A stretch of 34,185 nucleotides of DNA, the filler included, from an uncultured Methanosarcinales archaeon (GTDB taxonomy: Archaea > Nanobdellota > Nanobdellia > Woesearchaeales > CALCXY01), in assembly GCA_964385185.1 (NCBI GenBank). It is 17 parts of 17 records of this genome, joined end to end, with 100 filler letters (N's around TTAATTAATTAA, not from the genome) between each part and the next. Parts side by side here need not be neighbours in the genome. Positions count along the whole stretch, not along the records: positions 1 to 2,452 come from CAYLOA010000068.1; 16 more parts are not named here. One strand, given 5' to 3'. Shown here piece after piece: positions 125 to 33,881 of the stretch; the first letter of the stretch is position 1, and every line of letters starts with the position of its first letter. A model generated the notes under the pieces. The model did no database searches, was not told the origin of the DNA, and saw only the letters and a program-made list of their open reading frames with translations. The translations under genes were made by a program, and so were the position numbers.

Positions 125-574
125 TCACAATGTTACGAACTCCGTCTTCACCTGCTTAAACGACACTAAAGATTTGATTTTGACTACACCTTTTCTAGAA
201 ATAACATTCTTTACAAAATCATAATATGCATCTTGATCTTTAACTCTGACTTTCAAAACCATCTCCCAATCACCAGTACAAATATCAATACTTTCAATCT
301 GATGGTGTTTTGCCAGATCCTTACCAATTCTTTCAGGATTCCCATACTCATCTGGAGATAAACTTATCAGAACATAAGTACAGAATCCCTCATCAATTTT
401 CTTATAATCAAATACTGCTTTATAGGTTTTAATAGCTCCCTCTTTCTCTAACTTCTTAATGTTGTAGTGGATTGTGGTGGATGGCTCTTTTATCTTTTTA
501 GCTATCCTAGCTATCTGCGGGGTACAATTGCCTTCTTTAAACAATTTAACAAGTTTCTCAGTTATATTCTTCAT
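125..574 (-). CDS. Lrp/AsnC family transcriptional regulator
   Basis: N-terminal HTH (IARIAKKIKEPSTTIHYNIKKLEKEGAIKTYKAVFD) and C-terminal RAM domain with CTGDWEMVLKV; 149 aa. Confidence 0.93.
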   Translation of the reverse strand: MKNITEKLVKLFKEGNCTPQIARIAKKIKEPSTTIHYNIKKLEKEGAIKTYKAVFDYKKIDEGFCTYVLISLSPDEYGNPERIGKDLAKHHQIESIDICTGDWEMVLKVRVKDQDAYYDFVKNVISRKGVVKIKSLVSFKQVKTEFVTL

Positions 575-578
575 ATAA

Positions 579-648
579 ATTGAATAATATTCAATAATAT
601 ATAAATTTATCGCCCAATATTCGTACTTTATTCAATCAATTATATTAA
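579..648. promoter_or_regulatory. Divergent archaeal-type promoter region with palindromic operator
   Basis: Perfect palindrome ATTGAATA-A-TATTCAAT at 579-595 and a second TATTCAAT half-site at 629-636. TATA-like TTTATATA on the minus strand (598-605) and TTATATTAA on the plus strand (640-648). Confidence 0.6.
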
Positions 649-715
649 GATGGTACCACTTCTCTTATCTGAGATAAAATGAAAAATCAATCACTAGAGG
701 CTAAGGCACAAAATT

Positions 716-1573
716 GTGCTGGTCGTCGGTATCACAAGCAAAGAAGATTTAGCTAGATTTATCACTCAAGAGCCTTTAGTTGAGACTAAGCCGTCATTGG
801 CTGGAATTTCTCAAATATCAGAAGTAAATGCGCTATACTTTGGTGTTGGTCTCTGTAATGGAGTTCCTATGCTTAGTGCAGGTCTGCCCATTGATGTTCT
901 GAGCATGATTCTTAGCGGAGAACAGCTAGATGTACCAAAACATATCTTAGTTGCAGATACTCATGCGACAACTAACGGTTTTGATGCTCAATCGGTCGAT
1001 AAATTGGCTGGGCAATACCAAGAAATGTTTCAAAGAGTCGTAGAAAATCTAGGTTTTACTGGATGGCACGTTGTAAGAGCATCGGAAATAGATCAAACTC
1101 CTACTTACAGAGATCTTCTTAGCACTATAGAAGCCTCTCACGACTACATCAGAAGAGAATTGGCAGATATGCGTTGGTTCAATCACGAACATAATGTAAA
1201 TCTCAAAGTTGGCTGGGCTCTTAACGGAAGTAAGAATTCAGATGAAACATCATTTGACCAAGAATTCCAACGTCAATTTGAGGATCCTTTAGGATTTATC
1301 TACGTGATGCCCGGCAGGACTTTTGATCCCAAGAGGCTTCGCTCTGCTCCATACTTTTGCACAAATCCGGAAGAAAGAATCTTGCTCAAAGTAGATGAAA
1401 ATGTCGCGAATAAGATAGCTTCAGCTCAGGAACAATTTGGTCAACAGGCAACAAGACCATACGAGAAATTCCTTAGTCACGTAATTAGGCTATATGACAA
1501 AACTGTAGAGAGAACAGAACGAGGACCTATTGCAGGCAGATTACAACAAGTGATAGACAGGTGTACAAAATGA
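716..1573 (+). CDS. Class Ic aaRS catalytic-domain homolog (TyrRS/CDPS-like) without HIGH or KMSKS; start uncertain (GTG 716)
   Basis: Motifs in the expected order: ALYFGVGLC, HILVADTHATTN (cf. archaeal TyrRS IILLADLHAYLN), VVRASEIDQTPTYR (cf. AlbC SLSELQETPEYR), DYIRRELAD (YxxxE of CDPS, YxxxQxxD of TyrRS), NLKVGW. Reference sequences recalled from memory. Confidence 0.6.
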   Translation: MLVVGITSKEDLARFITQEPLVETKPSLAGISQISEVNALYFGVGLCNGVPMLSAGLPIDVLSMILSGEQLDVPKHILVADTHATTNGFDAQSVDKLAGQYQEMFQRVVENLGFTGWHVVRASEIDQTPTYRDLLSTIEASHDYIRRELADMRWFNHEHNVNLKVGWALNGSKNSDETSFDQEFQRQFEDPLGFIYVMPGRTFDPKRLRSAPYFCTNPEERILLKVDENVANKIASAQEQFGQQATRPYEKFLSHVIRLYDKTVERTERGPIAGRLQQVIDRCTK

Positions 1574-2271
1574 AAGAAAAAATCTTAGGAGTAATTGGAG
1601 GACTAGGACCTGAAACAGGATGTAAGTTTTGTCTAAATGTAAACCGGAAGTTCAAACCCATTACAAAAAGACAACCTCACATTTTACTAGATAATCTTCC
1701 AATCTCCCAAGAAGCAGAAGAACGCCTGATTAATGGAGGCCCATCTCAAGAACACCTGGACTTGTTGTTAGATTCAGTAAAACGCATGAATAATCTAAAT
1801 GTAGACTTAATAGTTATTGCCTGCAATACTGTTCACATCTTTATTGATGAACTTAGAGAAAAATCAACTGTTCCTATATTGAGTATCATAGAAGAAACAG
1901 CAAAAAAATGTAAAGACATGAACATTACAAAAGTTGGCATTCTTGGCTCTACCAAAACAATCAAGTCTGAGCTTCATGCCAACGAACTTCGCAAATGGAA
2001 TATTGAATCAATAACACCTGAGGATACTAGCCAACACTTTGTAAGTGAGTGTATTCTAAGAATTATCAACAACCAAGTTAAAGATAATGATAAAATACGA
2101 ATGATAAAAATAATAAAAAAACTTGAGAAAGTGGGAGCCAGGGGGATAATTTTAGGATGTACTGAATTACCCTTGTTAATTTCAGATCAAGACGCAAACA
2201 TACCAATAATCAACACTACTGAAATCTTAGAGGATTCTTCTATAAACAATTTAATTAACAAAATCAAATAA
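1570..2271 (+). CDS. Aspartate/glutamate racemase family protein (PLP-independent)
   Basis: GVIGGLGP at the N-terminus, both catalytic Cys motifs (IACNTVH, ILGCTELP) and GILGSTKT. ATG at 1570 overlaps the upstream TGA (ATGA). Confidence 0.93.
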   Translation: MKEKILGVIGGLGPETGCKFCLNVNRKFKPITKRQPHILLDNLPISQEAEERLINGGPSQEHLDLLLDSVKRMNNLNVDLIVIACNTVHIFIDELREKSTVPILSIIEETAKKCKDMNITKVGILGSTKTIKSELHANELRKWNIESITPEDTSQHFVSECILRIINNQVKDNDKIRMIKIIKKLEKVGARGIILGCTELPLLISDQDANIPIINTTEILEDSSINNLINKIK

Positions 2272-2452: not shown

Positions 2453-2552
2453 NNNNNNNNNNNNNNNNNNNNNNNNNNNNNNNNNNNNNNNNNNNNTTAA
2501 TTAATTAANNNNNNNNNNNNNNNNNNNNNNNNNNNNNNNNNNNNNNNNNNNN
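2453..2552. other. Artificial contig linker (N44-TTAATTAATTAA-N44), first of 16
   Basis: The same 100-nt linker, with stops in all six frames, starts at 2453, 4965, 7369, 9772, 12055, 14283, 16495, 18545, 20492, 22386, 24190, 25990, 27669, 29325, 30952 and 32576. Confidence 0.99.
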
Positions 2553-5777: not shown

Positions 5778-6539
5778 ATGAAAAAGGTGTTTGGAAGTAG
5801 GTTGCAATCTTTGTTAATGTTATCTGTGTTGCTTTTGGTTTTGGTTCAGGCTTCTTTGGTTATTGCTCAAAAAGATGTTGGTGTTCCTGCCCCTGCTGAG
5901 ATAGTTGGGACCTCTAGTAATATTTTTGATCCAATTCGTAGTTTGTTTAGTGATTGGTCTGAGGGTAATGTGAGTCCTAATGTTGCTAAGTTTTTCTTTT
6001 TCTTTTTGCTTACTTTGTTGTTGTATTCGATTTTTGATACTACTGGTCTTGTAAATAGTCCAGGTATTAGATGGACTCTTTCGGCTGTTGTGGCCTTTTT
6101 ATCTACTGCTTTTATGGCTCAGTCGCAGGTCTGGTTATTAATTATTAGTTATGATGCGCTGGGTATGACTATATTGTCTTTGTTTCCTGTTGCTGTGCTT
6201 TGTTTTTATACATTTAGAGTTGCTTCTAGTGGTGGTCCTGGAGGGATTGTTATTCAATATGTTTCGTGGATAGTTTATTTGGTTTTTTTGATAGGATTCT
6301 TTGTTGCAGGAATGTTTAATGGAGCTGTTAGTTATTCTGATCCGTTTGCTTGGATTTATATTGTTGCTGTTGTTTTTTCTATATTAATGGTTATAGCCAA
6401 TAAACAGATAATTGAGTTTATTATTAATAAGTATATAGAGGCTCAAGGAGAAGCTGCTGGTAGGACTGCTGATCAGGTTGTTAATGCTGCTGATGCTATG
6501 AAGACTATTGCGGAAGGGCTTGGACATGGTAGAGGTTAA
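5778..6539 (+). CDS. Hypothetical multi-pass membrane protein with signal peptide
   Basis: N-terminal signal sequence and about 5 hydrophobic segments; CTTTATAAA upstream. Confidence 0.75.
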   Translation: MKKVFGSRLQSLLMLSVLLLVLVQASLVIAQKDVGVPAPAEIVGTSSNIFDPIRSLFSDWSEGNVSPNVAKFFFFFLLTLLLYSIFDTTGLVNSPGIRWTLSAVVAFLSTAFMAQSQVWLLIISYDALGMTILSLFPVAVLCFYTFRVASSGGPGGIVIQYVSWIVYLVFLIGFFVAGMFNGAVSYSDPFAWIYIVAVVFSILMVIANKQIIEFIINKYIEAQGEAAGRTADQVVNAADAMKTIAEGLGHGRG

Positions 6540-6570: not shown

Positions 6571-7278
6571 ATGAAAAAAGAGTTTTTGTTTGTTGTGCTA
6601 TTATTGGTTTTGTTTAATGTAATCTTTGTAATTTCTCAGGAGGGGCTTGAGAATGTTCCTGGGGGCAAGGCTTTAGGAGGAATTGAGGTTAATGAAGATA
6701 CTGGCCAGATAAAGCAGATTGAGGATATTAGGGAAGGAGTAGATAAATCTAGATCTCAGAATAGTAGTTATCTTTGGGAACAATGGAAGGCTATGCCTGT
6801 AGTGGGTCCTTTTATAGTTCTTCTTTCGTATGTTGGTTCTTTCATTGAGGGTGTTTTTTCTTTCTTGGATCCGGTCTGGAATCTAATATTTCAGAGTGAG
6901 TATGTAAAGAATTTTGCATTTTTTGTTAGGTTGGTTATATTTGTACTCTTGATTGCGGTGTTGTATTTTCCTTGTCGAGAGATGTTAAGAAGTCCTGTTC
7001 TAGGATTTTTGGCATCTCTAATTATTTCTATGATTATAGGGATAGCAGGGACTATTAATAGGGTGGGAGTTTTTGCAGATGCATTTACATTTAATATATG
7101 GACATTTTTTATGTTACTTTTAATATTGTTATTATTGTTTGTCGTTTATTCTTACTTTATGAAGCGTTTTAGAAAAAAGGCTGAAAAGATTCATTTGGGA
7201 AGATCTGATAAAGAGAGAGTGACTGCTGGTGATGCTTCTCGTAAACTTCTTTGGGGATTGGGTAGATCTACTGGTTAG
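6571..7278 (+). CDS. Hypothetical multi-pass membrane protein with signal peptide
   Basis: Signal sequence plus 3-4 TM segments; CTTAAATA upstream. Confidence 0.75.
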   Translation: MKKEFLFVVLLLVLFNVIFVISQEGLENVPGGKALGGIEVNEDTGQIKQIEDIREGVDKSRSQNSSYLWEQWKAMPVVGPFIVLLSYVGSFIEGVFSFLDPVWNLIFQSEYVKNFAFFVRLVIFVLLIAVLYFPCREMLRSPVLGFLASLIISMIIGIAGTINRVGVFADAFTFNIWTFFMLLLILLLLFVVYSYFMKRFRKKAEKIHLGRSDKERVTAGDASRKLLWGLGRSTG

Positions 7279-9604: not shown

Positions 9605-9873
9605 ATTTTTGGTGCTTGATTTATCCATTTTGTGCACTGTGGTAGTGATCCTATGGGTTGTATATGGACAAATGCTATATCATCTATTCCACTGATTTCT
9701 CTACCAGCTCTCCAAGAATTAACAAAATCTGGTAAAATGTTACTGTAAATGAATTTGTCTAGAGCGTTGGTNNNNNNNNNNNNNNNNNNNNNNNNNNNNN
9801 NNNNNNNNNNNNNNNTTAATTAATTAANNNNNNNNNNNNNNNNNNNNNNNNNNNNNNNNNNNNNNNNNNNNGC

Positions 9874-9993
9874 TGTAAGTTCTGTCCCCATAAATGCACG
9901 TTGGCCTGGAATGCAAGCTCCCAACAGTAATCCTAAAACTATCAAGATCGTTAACTTTGGGAAATATCGGCTAATGTTGAATGTAGTTTGCAA
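9874..9993 (-). CDS. Start of a lipoprotein, probably SCO/SenC family (3'-partial)
   Basis: TTG start 5 nt after the ctaAB stop; lipobox LLGA|C followed by FMGTELT. The family call is from context. Confidence 0.5.
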
Positions 9994-9998
9994 ATTGA

Positions 9999-11807
9999 TT
10001 AAAAAGTAACTGTTGCGTCAACCATCATAGATGTGAACAGTAAAGCTAGATAGAGCAGTGAATAAAGGTATAATCGGCGCGCACTTTGTCTCGTTGTTGC
10101 CCTAAATACTTGTATTGCGTAAAAGAGAAAGATCGCCCCGAGCATGACAGCACTAGCGGCGTAAATCACGCCTATTACGCTTGTCGTTGCAAATAATATT
10201 GTTAATGTAACCAGGATTATGGAATGGCCCAATATTCCTTTAGCTGTTGCTTCTTCCCCGTATTCAACTGGGAGCATAGGAATCCCAGCTTTAGCATAGT
10301 CGTCCTTGATAAGTAGAGATAATGCCCAAAAATGTGGCGGTGTCCAAAAAAATACTATTCCGAATAGATAGAGGGATGGAAGTTCCAGTCCACCTGTTAT
10401 GGCAGCCCATCCGACCATAGGAGGCACAGCCCCGGCGGCGCCGCCTATCACTATGTTGTGTATGGAAGTTCTCTTTAACCAGGCTGTGTAAACGAGGACG
10501 TAAAAGATAGTTGCTCCGGCAACCAATGCGGCGCTTACAGGATTAACCCAGTAGAAAAGTACAATGAACGCAATTACATTTAGCGTTATGCCGAAATAGA
10601 GGGCATGATTTGGGGCAATGCGATTGCCAGGCAGAGGCCTATGACTGGTTCGGCTCATCTTGTCATCTATATCACGATCCAAATAGTGATTTATCGCGTT
10701 AGCGCCTCCGGCTCCAAGTGAGCCACCGATTATTACAAGCAAGGTTGTTAGAAGCGGTGGCACTCCGTTGGAGGCTAAAAACAATCCGCCTAGGGCAGTA
10801 ATGAGCAAAAGGACAATAATCATCGGTTTGGTTAGTGCTAAGTAATCCATTGCCGCTGCTTTGAAATTCATGTTGAACGAATTGGGTTTCACCAATGTTG
10901 CCAATATCACAAGATTGCCCCATTGAGCTGTCGCCAATGTCAAATGTGAAATACGCGACAAGGAAGAGAATCCGGTTAGAGGATTGGCGGCTCCAACTAT
11001 GACTTGGGATAATGAAATGGCGACCAAAAATGCCCCTGCGAGTCCAGTAAGCATCGACCGGCTCCGTTGTGACCAGGCAATGAGCCCTACTCCTATTCCT
11101 ACCAAAGTCGAAATCCCGGCAAGCATTCTATGGGACAAATGTAGCCATTCAAGGGAGATATCTGGCACTAGTGAGTTATTACATAGAGGCCAACTTGGGC
11201 ATATGGTGCCTGCTCCTTGGCCTACAGTGATAGACCCTGAAATTATCACTATTATCGTGATCACTGCACCCAATGTAGCCAAAAAGAAGATTCTGGGAAC
11301 GGGCTGCTTCGAGTTTGTGGAATCATGGTAAGTCCAAATTATGCCCACGATAAGTAGGGCAAAAATGATTTGCGCTGTTGTAAGGTGCAGAGTTCGAAAA
11401 TGAGGGTTGAGTTCGGTGAATACAGTCGCGCCTCCTAAGCCACCTGCCACTATTATTAAAAGCACAGTTGCCCAAAGTATGTTTTTTATTGGCCTGACCG
11501 AAGGCCGTATGAATGTTGCGAACAGTGCCGTTCCAATTACGAAAATACCCGTTAGGGTTGCAAGTAGTCTGTGGAAGTACTCAACCAAGCTGTGAAAGTC
11601 GAGAGGCGGTACTATTTTCCCATAACATAACGGCCAGTCAGGGCATCCCAACCCGGATCCGGTAACTCGTACGAGTGCTCCCACGGCAATTAGGAAAAAA
11701 ACGGTGGTTGCACAAACGGTGATGAGAATCAGCAATGGCGTACCGTGAAGATTGCTGTGCAACCCTTTTGCAGGGCCAGTGATATTCTTGTTGGCCATAA
11801 CCTTCAA
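9999..11807 (-). CDS. ctaB: Heme A synthase (CtaA/COX15) fused to protoheme IX farnesyltransferase (CtaB/CyoE)
   Basis: N-half: GSGLGCPDWPLC, EYFHRL, CPSWPLC, HLSHR. C-half: LTKP, NHYLDRDIDDKMSRTSHRPLP, YTAWLKR, FFWTPPHFWAL, DDYAKAGIPMLP. The start may be ATG 11798. Confidence 0.95.
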   Translation of the reverse strand: MKVMANKNITGPAKGLHSNLHGTPLLILITVCATTVFFLIAVGALVRVTGSGLGCPDWPLCYGKIVPPLDFHSLVEYFHRLLATLTGIFVIGTALFATFIRPSVRPIKNILWATVLLIIVAGGLGGATVFTELNPHFRTLHLTTAQIIFALLIVGIIWTYHDSTNSKQPVPRIFFLATLGAVITIIVIISGSITVGQGAGTICPSWPLCNNSLVPDISLEWLHLSHRMLAGISTLVGIGVGLIAWSQRSRSMLTGLAGAFLVAISLSQVIVGAANPLTGFSSLSRISHLTLATAQWGNLVILATLVKPNSFNMNFKAAAMDYLALTKPMIIVLLLITALGGLFLASNGVPPLLTTLLVIIGGSLGAGGANAINHYLDRDIDDKMSRTSHRPLPGNRIAPNHALYFGITLNVIAFIVLFYWVNPVSAALVAGATIFYVLVYTAWLKRTSIHNIVIGGAAGAVPPMVGWAAITGGLELPSLYLFGIVFFWTPPHFWALSLLIKDDYAKAGIPMLPVEYGEEATAKGILGHSIILVTLTILFATTSVIGVIYAASAVMLGAIFLFYAIQVFRATTRQSARRLYLYSLLYLALLFTSMMVDATVTF

Positions 11808-11921
11808 TATACGTTACTCAGGGGCAGATCTAGAAGGAATCTTACCTATGTTACTGGAATCTGGCAACAATATGGTATTCGGAGAGGTTACATTCTCAAC
11901 TGGCGTTTTGCCAAAATATTG

Positions 11922-11950
11922 TTGACTCTGGTTTGCTAAATTGGTATTCT
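11922..11950 (+). promoter_or_regulatory. Bacterial sigma70-type promoter for a divergent gene starting near 12014
   Basis: TTGACT-N17-TATTCT with TG just upstream of the -10 box. Confidence 0.55.
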
Positions 11951-12155
11951 TGCACCAGTTTGTGAGTTGCGGCATTTTTCACAAAAGGCGCCTCGGGAGC
12001 TTAAAAGAGAAAAATGGGAATCAATAAATCTATACTCCATAACTTGGCCAAACTNNNNNNNNNNNNNNNNNNNNNNNNNNNNNNNNNNNNNNNNNNNNTT
12101 AATTAATTAANNNNNNNNNNNNNNNNNNNNNNNNNNNNNNNNNNNNNNNNNNNNG

Positions 12156-30932: not shown

Positions 30933-31051
30933 CCAAGGTTGAATCAGTTTTNNNNNNNNNNNNNNNNNNNNNNNNNNNNNNNNNNNNNNNNNNNNTTAAT
31001 TAATTAANNNNNNNNNNNNNNNNNNNNNNNNNNNNNNNNNNNNNNNNNNNN

Positions 31052-32257
31052 TTTTAATCCACCCACCAAAGTTTTAATCATTGTTTGAGCTGAACCCACA
31101 ACAGATTTAAGTGCCTCGTCTTGAGTCATAGTACCTGCCTGTACTTGTTTAAATGCGCCTTTTGCACTATCTTTAAAAGTACTCATTACTCCATCGAGAT
31201 CAATAGTACTACTTATAAGATTACCAAATGGTAATGCTTCCATTGCCGACTTCATTTTATCAAAAGGTGCAGAAACAGCATCTACTGCGGCCGCAATTTG
31301 TTGATGTTGAAGTTTTTGTTCTTTTGCTAATTTGACATTTGCTTTTGCATTGTCTACTGCAAGCCTGGCGGCGGTATCACCTTTATCTATCTGATCCTGT
31401 GCTTCTTTTCTCTTTTTATTTAACTCTTTAACTAAATTTAGTTCTGCTTCGGTCAGATTTCCTTTAGCCATCATCAACCCAATCTGCCCCTCTAATATAG
31501 CTACTTCGGATTCCATTCCTGTTTTTCTCTCTTCCCACAATCCCAGATTTCTTTCAGCTATTTTTTCTTGTTTTTCCATCTCTCCAACCATATCCATAAA
31601 ACTACTCTCTCCAATCTCATCAAAATTTATAAGTAATTTGTTTGAAGATTCTATTGTGTCGCCGAGTCCTTCAATCATCGTTGTTACTGTTTGTCCAACC
31701 ATTGCATGTAAGCTACGCCACGATTCCATAGCATTTTTTGTTGCCTGACCTTCCTGAGTTCTAAGATCTACCATTGTGCCTGATACATCACCTGCTTTAC
31801 GCAGAGTCGCATACAATTCATCTGCTGCGTCAGTCCCTTCTTTCATAAACTCTGAAAGACTTTCTGCACCAGTAGCAAATTCGTGCATCAGATTTGGTAA
31901 GTTTTCAAGCACCCTCTTAACGGAGTCTGTGTCATTCTTAATTCCTATTGTTGCTAATCCAGTTTGATGTGCGGCATTAGACCAGTCAATTGTCCTTTTA
32001 TCAATTCCTTCAATAGATTTACCAACATCTTTTTGTAACGACTCTACCCGTGACATAAGGGTATAAACTTTCTGTTCACCTTCTTCTCGGACTTTATTAA
32101 TAGCCGCCTGTTCTTTTTTTATATTTTTAAGTCGTTTTTCTTTGGCCTGTAAGGATTGTATTTCCTTATCATCCAATGCGCCGGACTTTTTCTTGAGCTC
32201 ATTGATTTGGCCCGTGAGTAAAATTTCTTCTTTTCTTCTACTGATAGAAGTTGCCAT
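31052..32257 (-). CDS. Phage tape-measure-like protein, allele A (3'-partial)
   Basis: Helical and heptad-rich. APFDKMKSAMEALPFGNLISS aligns with APIDKLREVIESAPGGKFLS of 12372-14282, and the same small gene lies upstream. Confidence 0.65.
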
Positions 32258-32481: not shown

Positions 32482-32675
32482 TTTTATTCTCCTACATATG
32501 ATTTTATTTTATGATTTCCTTTGGTTAAACAGGATAGTATAACTCACTAATAAATATCATATATAGGAAAAAATGNNNNNNNNNNNNNNNNNNNNNNNNN
32601 NNNNNNNNNNNNNNNNNNNTTAATTAATTAANNNNNNNNNNNNNNNNNNNNNNNNNNNNNNNNNNNNNNNNNNNN

Positions 32676-33881
32676 TTTTAATCCACCCACCAAAGTTTTA
32701 ATCATTGTTTGAGCTGAACCCACAACAGATGTAAGTGCTTCGTCTTGAGTCATAGTACCTGCCTGTACTTGTTTAAATGCGTCTGTTGCACTGTCTTTAA
32801 ATGAATCCATTGCTGGCCCCAAACCAATAGCACTACTTATAAGATTACCAAATGGTAATGCTTCCATTGCCGACTTCATTTTTTCAAATGGTGCAGAAAC
32901 AGCACCTACTGCGGCCGTGATTTGTTCGTGTTGAATTTTTTGTTCTTTTGCTAATTTAACATTTGTTCTTGCATTTGCTGCTGCAGTCTTGGCAGCATCT
33001 TCACCTTTTTTCATAGTATCATGTGATTTTTCTAATTGTTTATTTAACTCATCATATAAATCTCGCTGTTCTTTGGTCATATTTTCTATAGGACCCATCG
33101 CTTTCAACTGTTCCTGTAACAGTTCTTGTTGCGACTGCATTTCAACTTTTCTCTCTTCCCACAATTCAAGATTTCTCTCGGCCAATCTTTCTTGTTTTTC
33201 CATCTCCCCAACCATGTCCACAAAACTACCTGTTCCAATCTCATCAAGATTTATAAGTAATTTTGCTGAAGATTCTATTGTCTGACCGAGACCCGCAACC
33301 ATCTCTGCTGTTGTTTGTCCAACAACCTGTCTTAATTCTCCCCACGTGGATACCGCATCTCTTGTTGCCTTACCTTCCTTGGTTCTAAAATCCACCATTG
33401 TGCCTGCAATTCTACCTTTTTCACGCATTTTTTCTAACAGGCCTTCCGATAAATCATTTTCTTCGTCCATAAAGTCTACAACATTTGCTGCACCTTCTGC
33501 AAATTGATTCATCATGCCTGGAAGTAATTTCAAAATACCATGAATACTGTCTGTATTATTTTTAACTCCTAATGTTGCTATTCCAGTTTGAAATGCGGCA
33601 TCAGACCATTTAACAGTATCTTTTCCAGCCACATTAATAACTTTACCAATACTTTTTTGTAACATCTCCACCTGTGAAGTAAGGTTATAAATTTTTCTTT
33701 CACCTTCTTCTCGGACTTTATTAATAGCCGCGTGTTCTTTTCTTATAACTTTAAGTTGTTTTTCTTTCTTTTCTAATTCTCTAATTTCTTTTTCAGTTGC
33801 ATTACTGCCCAGTTTCTTGAGAGCATTAATTCTTTCTATTAATATAATTTCTTTTTTTCTAGTACTAAGGGGATTAGCCAT
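32676..33881 (-). CDS. Phage tape-measure-like protein, allele B (3'-partial)
   Basis: Colinear homolog of 31052-32257 with the same 1206-nt span. Confidence 0.65.

What the first reader, a model, noticed from the sequence alone, without database searches (positions are those of the whole stretch)
716..1573. Orphan TyrRS/cyclodipeptide-synthase-like protein lacking ATP motifs, with Cys near the nucleophile position
Seen: motifs Y41-F-G43-V-G45-L-C47, ILVAD81TH83ATTN, RAS123E124IDQTPTY131R, Y144xxxE148xxD151 and K164VGW, with no HIGH or KMSKS. Established: CDPSs such as AlbC derive from the class Ic aaRS catalytic domain, lack ATP-binding motifs, use aminoacyl-tRNA, and have a Ser nucleophile (GISAGN) plus YxxxE. 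From recalled sequences, this ORF matches AlbC (YVDTH, SELQETPEYR, YVLAE) and archaeal TyrRS (LLADLHAYLN, YGSEFQ, YxxxQxxD) in the correct order. Inference: a divergent tRNA-dependent peptide-bond-forming enzyme, possibly using Cys47 as the acyl acceptor. It may be closer to the fungal arginine-containing CDPSs than to NYH/XYP CDPSs; I cannot verify that.
Basis: partly seen in the sequence, partly recalled or inferred. Interest (0 to 1): 0.85.

Follow-up and report, generated by a model that had tools for sequence, protein, structure and literature searches.

The report
TyrRS-derived protein paired with a racemase
This gene encodes a relative of tyrosyl-tRNA synthetase that has lost the ATP-handling motifs but kept the tyrosine pocket; it belongs to a widespread, uncharacterised family in tiny archaea and bacteria that sits beside an amino-acid racemase or tyrosyl-tRNA synthetase itself, so it probably handles D/L-tyrosine and is not a cyclodipeptide synthase.

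Summary
The AlphaFold model is confident (pLDDT 92.8). All 43 listed Foldseek PDB matches are tyrosyl-tRNA synthetases, archaeal type best. It is not an orphan: 353 clusters at 50% identity match it, from DPANN archaea and CPR-like bacteria, and no Pfam or NCBIfam model covers the family.

HIGH and KMSKS are absent family-wide. The TyrRS tyrosine-binding positions are kept: Y/F41, Y144, E/Q148, D151, E177. New invariant residues appear: P58, K164, W167, P212-Y213, R221.

The CDPS reading fails. The position of the CDPS catalytic serine is an invariant glycine (G45). C47 is Cys in only 67 of 127 members, and E148 is Gln in 49 of 127.

Context points to tyrosine chirality. An Asp/Glu-type racemase is directly adjacent in 13 of 17 related loci, with overlapping start and stop. 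Genuine TyrRS is adjacent in 3 loci and fused in 4 protein clusters. DTD2, a YbaK-like deacylase, an aromatic hydroxylase and Lrp/TK0271-like regulators also occur nearby.

Best reading: a non-activating TyrRS paralogue working with the racemase and TyrRS on D/L-tyrosine or tyrosyl-tRNA. The exact chemistry is unproven.

The parts
125..574 (-). Lrp/AsnC (feast/famine) family regulator, divergently transcribed from the TyrRS-like gene
   Evidence: PF01037 E 1.4e-11 and several Lrp-type NCBIfam models, all below their cut-offs. A homologue sits in the same divergent position in 7 of 17 related loci.
575..715 (.). AT-rich divergent intergenic region with short palindromes, such as ATTGAATA/TATTCAAT at 579-595. 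It is a candidate regulator and promoter site.
   Evidence: Function was not tested.
716..1573 (+). TyrRS-derived protein, 285 aa: Rossmann-fold core, shortened CP1, three C-terminal helices
836..856 (+). Y41-F-G43-V-G45-L-C47, the equivalent of the TyrRS Y-x-G-F-E-P-S strand and loop. G43 and G45 are invariant. C47 aligns with the Ser of TyrRS 'EPSG'.
869..895 (+). M52-L-S-A55 aligns with the TyrRS HIGH-type motif (HIAQ in DPANN TyrRS) but has no His. It is followed by a family-specific insertion with invariant P58 and D60 (125 of 127).
953..976 (+). A80-D81-T-H83-A84-T-T-N87, shared with the archaeal-type TyrRS motif A-D-x-H-x-x-x-N
   Evidence: A, D and N are found in 43 of 43 TyrRS rows and H in 36 of 43.
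1145..1168 (+). Y144-x3-E148-x2-D151, the equivalent of TyrRS Y-x3-Q-x2-D, which binds the amino group and the ring OH of tyrosine
   Evidence: Residue roles come from PMC1934993 section 14 and PMC3105412 section 12.
1205..1258 (+). K164-V-G-W167 (K and W invariant), a low-confidence loop, then D176-E177-x-x-F-D181. D176-E177 aligns with the D-Q of the TyrRS 'GxDQ' motif.
1331..1378 (+). K206-R-L-R-S210 aligns with KMSKS (family consensus x-R-P-K/R-A). It is followed by invariant P212-Y213 and invariant R221.
1561..2271 (+). PLP-independent Asp/Glu-type amino-acid racemase. The ORF starts at GTG 1561. A conserved ATG at 1570 overlaps the upstream TGA stop (ATGA). Both catalytic Cys are present.
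   Evidence: PF01177 E 4e-38 and TIGR00035 at 161.8 bits against a cut-off of 93.1. The nearest solved structure is P. horikoshii aspartate racemase 1jfl. C88 and C200 are invariant in 13 of 13 sequences. The overlap is shown.
2453..2552 (.). N44-TTAATTAATTAA-N44 spacer. It marks the end of the contig that carries the finding.

Best explanation
The ORF encodes a member of an undescribed family that descends from archaeal-type tyrosyl-tRNA synthetase and no longer makes tyrosyl-adenylate.

What is shown:
- It keeps the Rossmann core and the tyrosine pocket: Y/F41, D81/H83, Y144, E/Q148, D151 and E177.
- It has replaced HIGH and KMSKS with its own conserved motifs: L-P58-x-D60, K164-x-G-W167, P212-Y213 and R221.
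- It has lost about 25 residues of the CP1 dimerisation insert and about half of the anticodon-binding domain.
- Its gene appears translationally coupled to a two-cysteine amino-acid racemase and sits beside a divergent Lrp/AsnC regulator, which may control the pair.
- In other lineages the same family is adjacent or fused to genuine TyrRS.

What is inferred:
- The protein binds a tyrosyl moiety without ATP chemistry. The moiety could be free D/L-Tyr, or tyrosine esterified to A76 of tRNA-Tyr.
- It works with the racemase and TyrRS in D/L-tyrosine handling.
[quoted passage not shown] This would be a chirality-correction and salvage module for the synthetase with the weakest stereoselectivity.
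For: Fold:
- The AF2 model has pLDDT 92.8.
- All 43 listed Foldseek PDB rows are TyrRS or engineered M. jannaschii TyrRS variants, E 1e-8 to 8e-7.
- 17 of 127 family members weakly hit PF00579.
- hhalign to TyrRS gives E 3.2e-6.

Residue map:
- From: Y41=Y, Y144=Y, E148=Q, D151=D, E177=Q.
- These are the five positions that hold tyrosine in TyrRS (PMC1934993 section 14; PMC3105412 section 12).
- Family conservation: Y144 in 125 of 127, E/Q148 in 127 of 127, D151 in 115 of 127, E177 in 127 of 127.

Loss of ATP motifs.

Gene context:
- A racemase is directly adjacent on the same strand in 13 of 17 loci.
- It lies downstream in 10 loci (L001-L010 except L007's split copy counted once) and upstream in L015-L017.
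- These loci span the deepest split of the family tree.
- The overlap is 13-14 nt in most loci.

Link to TyrRS:
- A genuine TyrRS, above equivalog cut-offs, is the next or next-but-one gene in L012, L014 and L017.
- It is fused in P0070, P0084 (plus P0320) and P0086.

Other neighbours:
- DTD2-type D-aminoacyl-tRNA deacylase (L009).
- YbaK-like deacylase (L012).
- Aromatic amino-acid hydroxylase (L002).
- HisC-like aminotransferase (L013).
- TK0271-like small ORFs (L015-L017). TK0271 activates aromatic amino-acid operons (PMC6737238, abstract).

Background from papers:
- TyrRS has the weakest stereospecificity of the synthetases and no editing domain (PMC6765224, sections 3 and 12).
- An Lrp-type regulator controls a racemase cluster for D-amino-acid use in P. 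horikoshii (PMC13628549, abstract).

Inference on the two Gln-to-Glu changes (E148, E177): a neutral ester or amine would suit this pocket better than a carboxylate or acyl-phosphate.
Against: - No experiment or computation here shows binding of tyrosine, tRNA, the racemase or TyrRS.
- The racemase's closest solved relative is an aspartate racemase. Its real substrate is unknown. The positions aligned to R48 and K164 of that enzyme are A and N, but the role of those two residues is recalled only.
- The window's own contig carries no TyrRS.
- 4 of 17 loci (L011-L014) have no racemase within the stretch held.
- TyrRS adjacency and fusion are concentrated in one clade, and fusions are rare: 4 clusters.
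- Y41 is Tyr in only 56 of 127 members (F in 46), so the ligand need not be tyrosine itself.
- The C-terminal part is only three helices, and the window protein is acidic (pI 5.4). Neither suggests strong tRNA binding.
- Co-occurrence with DTD2 in L009 would make a D-Tyr-tRNA deacylase partly redundant.
- Only 17 genomic loci could be examined.
Confidence: 0.4

Rival explanations
1. It is a non-catalytic amino-acid-sensing or regulatory subunit of the adjacent racemase. This would resemble HisZ, the HisRS paralogue that regulates HisG. The retained pocket would bind the amino acid, and the protein would form a stoichiometric complex with the racemase.
For: The genes appear translationally coupled, with start and stop overlapping in most of the 13 racemase-linked loci. 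The adenylation motifs are lost while the pocket is kept. The HisZ precedent is recalled, not checked here.
Against: Ten residues are invariant across 127 very divergent members (mean column identity 20%), including charged K164, E177 and R221. That looks more like an active site than a sensor. Family members next to or fused with TyrRS (L012, L014, P0070, P0084, P0086) have no racemase beside them. Asp/Glu-type racemases are not known to need a partner (recalled).
Confidence: 0.2
2. One reading: a CDPS-like enzyme that takes aminoacyl-tRNA, forms an acyl-enzyme on Cys47 and makes a dipeptide or diketopiperazine.
For: - It has the same ancestry as CDPSs, a class Ic core without ATP motifs.
- The Y144xxxE148 motif matches AlbC Y178xxxE182 (PMC3105412 section 12).
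- Fusion or adjacency to TyrRS would supply Tyr-tRNA.
- One fusion carries a GNAT domain, PF13480.
- The Atlas feature search lists a cluster that is partly CDPS at rank 10, score 0.86, which is only a lead.
Against: - The position of the CDPS serine (G+2) is invariant Gly45.
- C47 is Cys in 67 of 127 members, and at least 24 carry A, V, M or G there.
- E148 is Gln in 49 of 127, and AlbC E182Q is inactive (PMC3105412 section 12).
- The P184 equivalent is Ala in 100 of 127.
- PF16715 does not match the window protein at E<=10. It is not among the 25 families listed for 127 members.
- None of the 43 listed Foldseek rows is a CDPS.
- N- and C-terminal TyrRS regions that CDPSs lack are present.
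- Helix 91-111 has 2 basic residues where AlbC alpha4 has nine. The helix equivalence is inferred.
Confidence: 0.08
3. It is a catalytically dead partner that pairs with TyrRS in a heterodimer or pseudo-dimer, as in the double-length trypanosomatid TyrRS. It would contribute tRNA binding or regulation only.
For: Fusions with an active TyrRS half occur in both domain orders, and with both bacterial-type and archaeal-type TyrRS. TyrRS is adjacent in L012, L014 and L017. The pseudo-dimer precedent is described in PMC9437257 section 7 (passages read).
Against: The segment between Y131 and Y144 is 12 residues, where TyrRS has 37. This is the CP1 region that forms the class Ic dimer interface (PMC3105412 sections 11 and 16). 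The anticodon-binding part is reduced to three helices, against six helices plus a hairpin in TyrRS (PMC1934993 section 11). Most archaeal members pair with a racemase, not with TyrRS. Strictly conserved new residues argue for a function of its own.
Confidence: 0.1
4. It is a decaying TyrRS pseudogene or a spurious ORF.
For: The catalytic motifs are lost. In one close relative (L007) the gene is split into two ORFs.
Against: There are 353 clusters at 50% identity. Ten columns are invariant across 127 sequences. The fold prediction is confident. The operon partner is conserved.
Confidence: 0.01

Closest known systems
Archaeal/eukaryotic-type tyrosyl-tRNA synthetase (class Ic; for example M. jannaschii, A. 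pernix 2cya, N. equitans 7fg6)
   Same: Rossmann core and overall architecture, with TM up to 0.64. It has the N-terminal helices, the A-D-x-H-A motif and the tyrosine-binding positions Y/Y/Q(E)/D/Q(E). The D of GxDQ and the Pro after KMSKS are kept.
   Different: No HIGH and no KMSKS. CP1 is about 25 residues shorter. The C-terminal domain is about half the size. New invariant residues are P58, K164, W167, Y213 and R221. It is below every TyrRS model cut-off.
Cyclodipeptide synthases (AlbC, Rv2275, YvmC; PF16715)
   Same: Both are class Ic-derived, lack the ATP motifs and carry a Y-x3-E motif in the pocket. The shortened dimer-interface region recalls the monomeric CDPSs (PMC3105412).
   Different: There is no Ser at the nucleophile position (Gly45). 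E148 is often Gln. There is no P184 equivalent. It keeps the N-terminal and part of the C-terminal TyrRS regions. It matches no CDPS profile, and its closest structures are TyrRS.
Double-length pseudo-dimeric TyrRS of trypanosomatids
   Same: The fused forms P0070, P0084 and P0086 combine one active TyrRS with one inactive TyrRS-like module in a single chain.
   Different: The window protein stands alone and is paired with a racemase. The inactive module has its own conserved motifs and a truncated CP1. The eukaryotic case is a recent tandem duplication (PMC9437257, passages).
'ORF1' class-I-synthetase-like proteins linked to TrpRS-A in CPR/DPANN (Mukai et al. 2017, PMC5370408)
   Same: Both occur in the same organisms. 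Both are unknown class I-like proteins that always sit beside a class Ic synthetase.
   Different: ORF1 is linked to TrpRS, is described as lacking the Rossmann fold, and in the bacterial cases as lacking any Trp residue. This family has the Rossmann fold and an invariant Trp (W167). The sequences were not compared directly, because none was available from a tool.
HisZ (HisRS paralogue, regulatory subunit of ATP phosphoribosyltransferase). Recalled, not checked here.
   Same: It is a synthetase paralogue that keeps an amino-acid pocket, no longer charges tRNA, and is encoded with a metabolic enzyme.
   Different: It is class II, not class I. No complex with the racemase has been shown here.

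Membership tests
Tyrosyl-tRNA synthetase (class Ic aaRS) | Rossmann-fold catalytic domain of TyrRS type | tested here: met
   The model has pLDDT 92.8. All 43 listed Foldseek rows are TyrRS, probability 1.00, TMq 0.45-0.64.
Tyrosyl-tRNA synthetase (class Ic aaRS) | HIGH signature motif | tested here: not met
   The aligned segment is M-L-S-A, against H-I-A-Q in 42-43 of 43 DPANN TyrRS rows. Only 25 of 127 members have any His between G45 and P58.
Tyrosyl-tRNA synthetase (class Ic aaRS) | KMSKS signature motif | tested here: not met
   The aligned segment is K-R-L-R-S, and the family consensus is x-R-P-K/R-A. A KMSKS-like pattern is found in 0 of 127 members.
Tyrosyl-tRNA synthetase (class Ic aaRS) | Tyrosine-binding residues (Sce Y43, Y170, Q174, D177, Q192 / Mj Y32, Y151, Q155, D158, Q173) | tested here: met
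   All five positions are occupied by Y/F41, Y144, E/Q148, D151 and E177. Two are Gln-to-Glu changes. Y41 is Tyr in 56 of 127 and Phe in 46.
Tyrosyl-tRNA synthetase (class Ic aaRS) | CP1 insertion forming the homodimer interface | tested here: not met
   There are 12 residues between Y131 and Y144, against 37 between the aligned Y124 and Y162 of TyrRS. Dimerisation itself was not tested.
Tyrosyl-tRNA synthetase (class Ic aaRS) | C-terminal anticodon-binding domain | tested here: inconclusive
   Residues 226-285 form three helices. They align loosely with the first and last parts of the TyrRS domain, which has six helices and a hairpin (PMC1934993 section 11).
Tyrosyl-tRNA synthetase (class Ic aaRS) | Scores above curated family cut-offs (PF00579, NF006330, TIGR00234) | tested here: not met
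   There is no Pfam hit at E<=10. NF006330 scores 15.1 bits against a cut-off of 220.
Tyrosyl-tRNA synthetase (class Ic aaRS) | ATP-dependent tyrosine activation and tRNA-Tyr charging | not testable with these tools
   This needs ATP-PPi exchange and aminoacylation assays.
Cyclodipeptide synthase (CDPS, PF16715) | Match to the CDPS profile | tested here: not met
   The window protein has no Pfam hit at E<=10. Of 127 members scanned, PF16715 is not among the 25 families listed, while PF00579 is hit by 17. Weaker single hits beyond the listed 25 cannot be excluded.
Cyclodipeptide synthase (CDPS, PF16715) | Catalytic Ser two residues after the conserved pocket Gly (AlbC G35, S37) | tested here: not met
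   AlbC G35 = MjTyrRS G34 (PMC3105412 section 12) = G43 here. The G+2 position is G45, Gly in 127 of 127 members. C47 (G+4) is C67/S20/T14/A10/V6/M4/G4. No direct CDPS alignment or superposition was possible.
Cyclodipeptide synthase (CDPS, PF16715) | Essential Y178 and E182, and conserved P184 (AlbC numbering) | tested here: inconclusive
   Y144 is conserved in 125 of 127. E148 is E in 78 and Q in 49, and AlbC E182Q is inactive. The P184 equivalent, A150, is Ala in 100 of 127 (PMC3105412 sections 10 and 12).
Cyclodipeptide synthase (CDPS, PF16715) | Catalytic domain only: no N-terminal TyrRS region and no C-terminal tRNA-binding domain | tested here: not met
   Helices 9-18 and 24-31 and helices 230-284 are present. 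They align with TyrRS N- and C-terminal parts.
Cyclodipeptide synthase (CDPS, PF16715) | Use of aminoacyl-tRNA, with covalent aminoacyl-enzyme and cyclodipeptide product | not testable with these tools
   This needs labelled aa-tRNA and LC-MS.
Double-length pseudo-dimeric TyrRS | Active and inactive TyrRS-like halves in one chain | tested here: not met
   The window protein is a single 285-aa module. Only relatives P0070, P0084/P0320 and P0086 are fused to TyrRS.
aaRS-paralogue regulatory subunit (HisZ-like) | Stable complex with the co-encoded metabolic enzyme | not tested
The only evidence is gene adjacency with start/stop overlap.

The most novel reading that the evidence does not exclude
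A large, unnamed family of TyrRS-derived proteins in DPANN archaea and CPR-like bacteria has turned the synthetase's own active site into an ATP-independent module acting on tyrosyl-tRNA(Tyr). This would be a chiral-proofreading (D-Tyr-tRNA deacylase) or tyrosyl-transfer domain that TyrRS otherwise lacks. It is genetically coupled to a racemase that recycles D-Tyr to L-Tyr, and in some lineages it is fused to TyrRS as a built-in editing domain.
Probability: 0.2. Interest if true: 0.85.

Novelty: new variant of a known kind. Interest (0 to 1): 0.62.

Why it matters
TyrRS is the synthetase that discriminates D- from L-amino acid least well, and it has no editing domain (PMC6765224). A dedicated TyrRS-derived partner, encoded with a racemase and sometimes fused to TyrRS, would be a new answer to that old problem in organisms with minimal genomes that live on scavenged amino acids.

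Even if the chemistry turns out to be different, this is a third way, after CDPSs and pseudo-dimers, in which the class Ic catalytic domain has been re-used. The family has hundreds of sequence clusters and no Pfam or NCBIfam model. It gives clear, cheap experiments: tyrosine and tRNA binding, a deacylation assay and racemase coupling.

Tried and rejected
1. Single-sequence searches of the window protein found nothing in Pfam (E<=10) or in PDB sequences. Profile searches against PDB sequences gave only noise-level TyrRS hits, E 0.5-1.6. The relationship rests on the fold search and hhalign.
2. hhalign against a 3-sequence TyrRS alignment was weak: probability 48%, E 1.8e-4, 95 columns. A 33-sequence TyrRS alignment gave 74.7% and E 3.2e-6.
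3. The ESM Atlas gave only sub-threshold leads, with a best score of 0.89. A partly-CDPS cluster was at rank 10 with 0.86. I did not use these as evidence.
I used A1 instead. That biases the 17 loci towards close relatives of the window protein.
It was never queued because the queue was full, and the tool was finally declared unavailable. No result exists.
6. I planned to fold a natural fusion (P0084) and compare it with the pseudo-dimeric TyrRS. I dropped this plan. MAFFT puts TyrRS rows onto the homologous N-terminal module whenever family rows are present. No usable alignment for both halves could be made, and only 2 clusters of that fusion type exist.
7. pI comparison as a proxy for tRNA binding was uninformative: family median 7.8, window protein 5.4, TyrRS 8.1.
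8. Six full-text searches found no description of this family. The nearest was the TrpRS-A 'ORF1' of PMC5370408, which appears to be different.
Only the best 150 of 353 representatives were seen. CDPS and fungal RCDPS sequences could not be obtained from any tool, so no direct alignment or superposition with them was made.
Full report
**1. The observation**

The ORF at 716..1573 (+, GTG start, 285 aa) exists.

The gene is real. There are 57 clusters at 90% identity with E<=1e-3, and all those with names are 'hypothetical protein' from Woesearchaeota. An exhaustive HMMER search of 1.84 billion representatives gave 353 proteins with E<=1e-3, 269 with E<=1e-10 and 62 with E<=1e-30. So 'orphan' is wrong as a statement about relatives. 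It is right only as a statement about annotation:
- No Pfam family matches at E<=10.
- The only NCBIfam match is 15.1 bits to the archaeal TyrRS model, which has a cut-off of 220.
- Of 127 diverse members scanned, 17 weakly touch PF00579 (class I W/Y synthetases, best E 2.6e-4). No other family is hit by more than 2.

**2. A caveat about the window**

The window is not contiguous. Sixteen spacers of N44-TTAATTAATTAA-N44 cut it into 17 pieces of steadily decreasing length. It is therefore a draft assembly joined longest-first. Only 1-2452 is physically linked to the finding. That piece holds an Lrp/AsnC regulator (125-574, minus strand), the TyrRS-like ORF, and a racemase (1561-2271).

**3. Fold and homology**

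With a 32-sequence alignment, AlphaFold2 gives pLDDT 92.8 and pTM 0.91. Foldseek against the PDB returns at least 242 matches with E<=1e-3. All 43 rows listed are tyrosyl-tRNA synthetases or engineered M. jannaschii TyrRS variants. The best TM-scores go to archaeal enzymes: 2cya at 0.64 and 7fg6 at 0.62. No CDPS appears in the listed rows, though the list is cut.

Profile-profile comparison of the 127-member family alignment with 33 TyrRS sequences gives probability 74.7% and E 3.2e-6 over 254 columns. An independent MAFFT co-alignment gives the same residue map:

| Window protein | DPANN TyrRS |
|---|---|
| Y41 | Y |
| G43 | G |
| G45 | E |
| C47 | S (of EPSG) |
| M52-A55 | HIAQ (the HIGH motif) |
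| A80-D81-x-H83 | A-D-x-H |
| N87 | N |
| Y131 | Y |
| Y144 | Y |
| E148 | Q |
| D151 | D |
| D176-E177 | D-Q |
| K206-S210 | KMSKS |
| P212 | P |

P58, D60, K164 and W167 lie in family-specific insertions.

According to PMC1934993 (section 14) and PMC3105412 (section 12), tyrosine is held in TyrRS by exactly the positions that map to Y41, Y144, E148, D151 and E177.

**4. What is conserved in the family**

Across 127 representatives (mean column identity 20%), ten residues are invariant: G43, G45, P58, K164, W167, E177, G200, P212, Y213 and R221. Ten more are at least 90% conserved: D60, L62, A80, D81, A84, Y144, D151, G166, D176 and D181.

The ATP signatures are gone family-wide. A KMSKS-like pattern occurs in 0 of 127 members, and only 25 of 127 have any His in the HIGH region.

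The pocket is kept, with two Gln-to-Glu changes: E148 is E78/Q49 and E177 is E in 127 of 127. I infer that a more acidic pocket suits a neutral ester or an amine better than a carboxylate or acyl-phosphate.

The CP1 segment between Y131 and Y144 has 12 residues where TyrRS has 37. This is the region that forms the class Ic dimer interface (PMC3105412 sections 11 and 16). The C-terminal part is three helices, against six helices plus a hairpin in TyrRS (PMC1934993 section 11).

The protein is a remodelled TyrRS, not a decayed one.

**5. The CDPS hypothesis**

Sauguet et al. (PMC3105412, sections 10-13 read as passages) define CDPSs by these features:
- Conserved G35, S37, Y178, E182, P184 and Y202.
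- A covalent aminoacyl-S37 intermediate.
- Monomeric state.
- Absence of the N-terminal and C-terminal TyrRS regions.
- A basic patch on helix alpha4.

AlbC G35, Y178 and E182 superimpose on MjTyrRS G34, Y151 and Q155, which are G43, Y144 and E148 here. The results for this family are:
- The serine position (G+2) is Gly45, invariant in the family.
- C47 is two residues further on. It is Cys in only 67 of 127 members (S20, T14, A10, V6, M4, G4).
- E148 is Gln in 49 of 127, and AlbC E182Q is inactive.
- The P184 equivalent is Ala.
- The TyrRS-type N- and C-terminal parts are present.

The family is therefore not a CDPS, and Cys47 is not a conserved nucleophile. A tRNA-dependent activity of another kind is not excluded. 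This mapping goes through TyrRS, because no CDPS sequence or structure could be compared directly.

**6. Genomic context elsewhere**

A scan of one genome per species found 17 loci. They come from Woese-, Nano- and Aenigmatarchaeota, archaeon AR5, one Gottesmanbacteria and one MAG labelled Gammaproteobacteria.

*Racemase.* An Asp/Glu-type racemase is directly adjacent on the same strand in 13 of 17 loci. It lies downstream in the window's clade, usually with a 13-nt overlap. It lies upstream in the distant Aenigmatarchaeota/AR5 clade, which is separated by the longest, fully supported branch of the family tree (midpoint root only). In the window, a conserved ATG at 1570 overlaps the TGA stop. 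Both catalytic cysteines are invariant in 13 of 13 racemases.

*TyrRS.* A genuine TyrRS, above equivalog cut-offs, follows the family gene in three loci: L012, L014 and L017. In L012 it comes after a YbaK-like deacylase gene. In L017 the order is TK0271-like ORF, racemase, family gene, TyrRS. The family domain is fused to an intact TyrRS in P0070 (N-terminal to a bacterial-type enzyme), P0086 (C-terminal to one) and P0084/P0320 (N-terminal to an archaeal-type enzyme).

*Other neighbours*:
- A DTD2-type D-aminoacyl-tRNA deacylase (L009).
- An aromatic amino-acid hydroxylase (L002).
- A HisC-like aminotransferase (L013).
- Lrp/AsnC regulators in 7 loci.
- TK0271-like small ORFs (L015-L017), below the model cut-off.

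TK0271 activates aromatic amino-acid operons (PMC6737238, title and abstract). An Lrp-type regulator controls a racemase cluster for D-amino-acid use in P. horikoshii (PMC13628549, abstract and passages).

*Results that cut the other way:*
- 4 of 17 loci have no racemase.
- TyrRS links cluster in one clade (96/92 support).
- Fusions are rare.
- The racemase's nearest solved relative is an aspartate racemase (1jfl, E 1.7e-31).

**7. Most likely function**

Shown:
- TyrRS ancestry.
- Loss of the adenylation motifs.
- Retention of the tyrosine pocket.
- New invariant residues.
- Tight genetic coupling to a racemase, and in other lineages to TyrRS and aminoacyl-tRNA deacylases.

Inferred: the protein binds a tyrosyl moiety without ATP chemistry and acts in D/L-tyrosine handling.

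TyrRS has the weakest stereospecificity of all synthetases and no editing domain (PMC6765224, sections 3 and 12). I therefore favour a chirality-correction and salvage module. In this model the protein captures D-Tyr, or hydrolyses D-Tyr-tRNA(Tyr). The racemase converts D-Tyr to L-Tyr, and TyrRS uses the L-Tyr. I put about 0.4 on the general role and about 0.2 on the specific proofreading mechanism.

Rivals:
- A HisZ-like regulatory subunit of the racemase (0.2).
- A pseudo-dimer partner of TyrRS (0.1), weakened by the CP1 deletion.
- A CDPS-like enzyme (0.08).
- A pseudogene (0.01).

**8. Novelty**

Six full-text searches and passages from two reviews and studies of synthetase paralogues (PMC9437257, PMC5370408) gave no description of this family.

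The closest published idea is the 'ORF1' class-I-like protein linked to TrpRS-A in the same organisms. It is described as lacking the Rossmann fold and, in the bacterial cases, any Trp residue, so it is probably a different protein.

I rate the finding as a new variant of a known kind: synthetase-derived paralogues with non-canonical functions.

**9. What stayed open**

- Only 150 of the 353 representatives and 17 loci were seen.
- No CDPS or RCDPS sequence or structure could be compared directly.

Noticed in passing
window 2453-2552 and 15 further sites (4965, 7369, 9772, 12055, 14283, 16495, 18545, 20492, 22386, 24190, 25990, 27669, 29325, 30952, 32576): The window is 17 short contigs joined longest-first by N44-TTAATTAATTAA-N44 spacers. 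Genes beyond 2452 are not physically linked to the finding.
   Followed up: yes
window 9872-12054: This piece has GC 0.46, against about 0.33 elsewhere. It carries one 602-aa ORF (9999-11807, minus strand) that fuses COX15/CtaA and UbiA/CtaB domains, so heme A and heme O synthase. It may be a mis-binned contig or a transferred gene.
   Followed up: no
window 31004-32257 (-) and 32628-33881 (-): Two 417-aa ORFs with no Pfam family lie on different contigs and are 60% identical over 402 residues. They are either paralogues or two related populations in one bin.
   Followed up: partly
L007:6001-6857: In a close relative (86% identity) the TyrRS-like gene is split into two ORFs, 6001-6495 and 6582-6857. 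The racemase behind it is intact. This could be a sequencing error or a recent disruption.
   Followed up: no
L015:5015-5305, L016:3760-4050, L017:5062-5334: Small ORFs (91-97 aa) directly upstream of the racemase match the TK0271 aromatic-amino-acid activator family at 54.6-73.9 bits, below the cut-off of 130. In these lineages they take the place of the Lrp/AsnC regulator.
   Followed up: partly
L001:2188-3504 (-): A complete bacterial-type sigma-70 factor (regions 2, 3 and 4) lies 2.5 kb from the TyrRS-like gene, on a contig whose record is titled 'archaeon'.
   Followed up: no
P0071 (581 aa): One family member is fused behind a GNAT domain (PF13480, E 3e-25). Its C-terminal 70 residues look like out-of-frame sequence.
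   Followed up: partly
P0070 and P0086: Their TyrRS-like modules are sister sequences (support 93/93), yet one sits N-terminal and the other C-terminal to a bacterial-type TyrRS. This implies either independent fusions or a domain swap.
   Followed up: no
window 1561-2271 (racemase): The positions aligned to R48 and K164 of P. horikoshii aspartate racemase are Ala and Asn. If those residues bind the beta-carboxylate, which I only recall, then the substrate here is not aspartate.
   Followed up: partly
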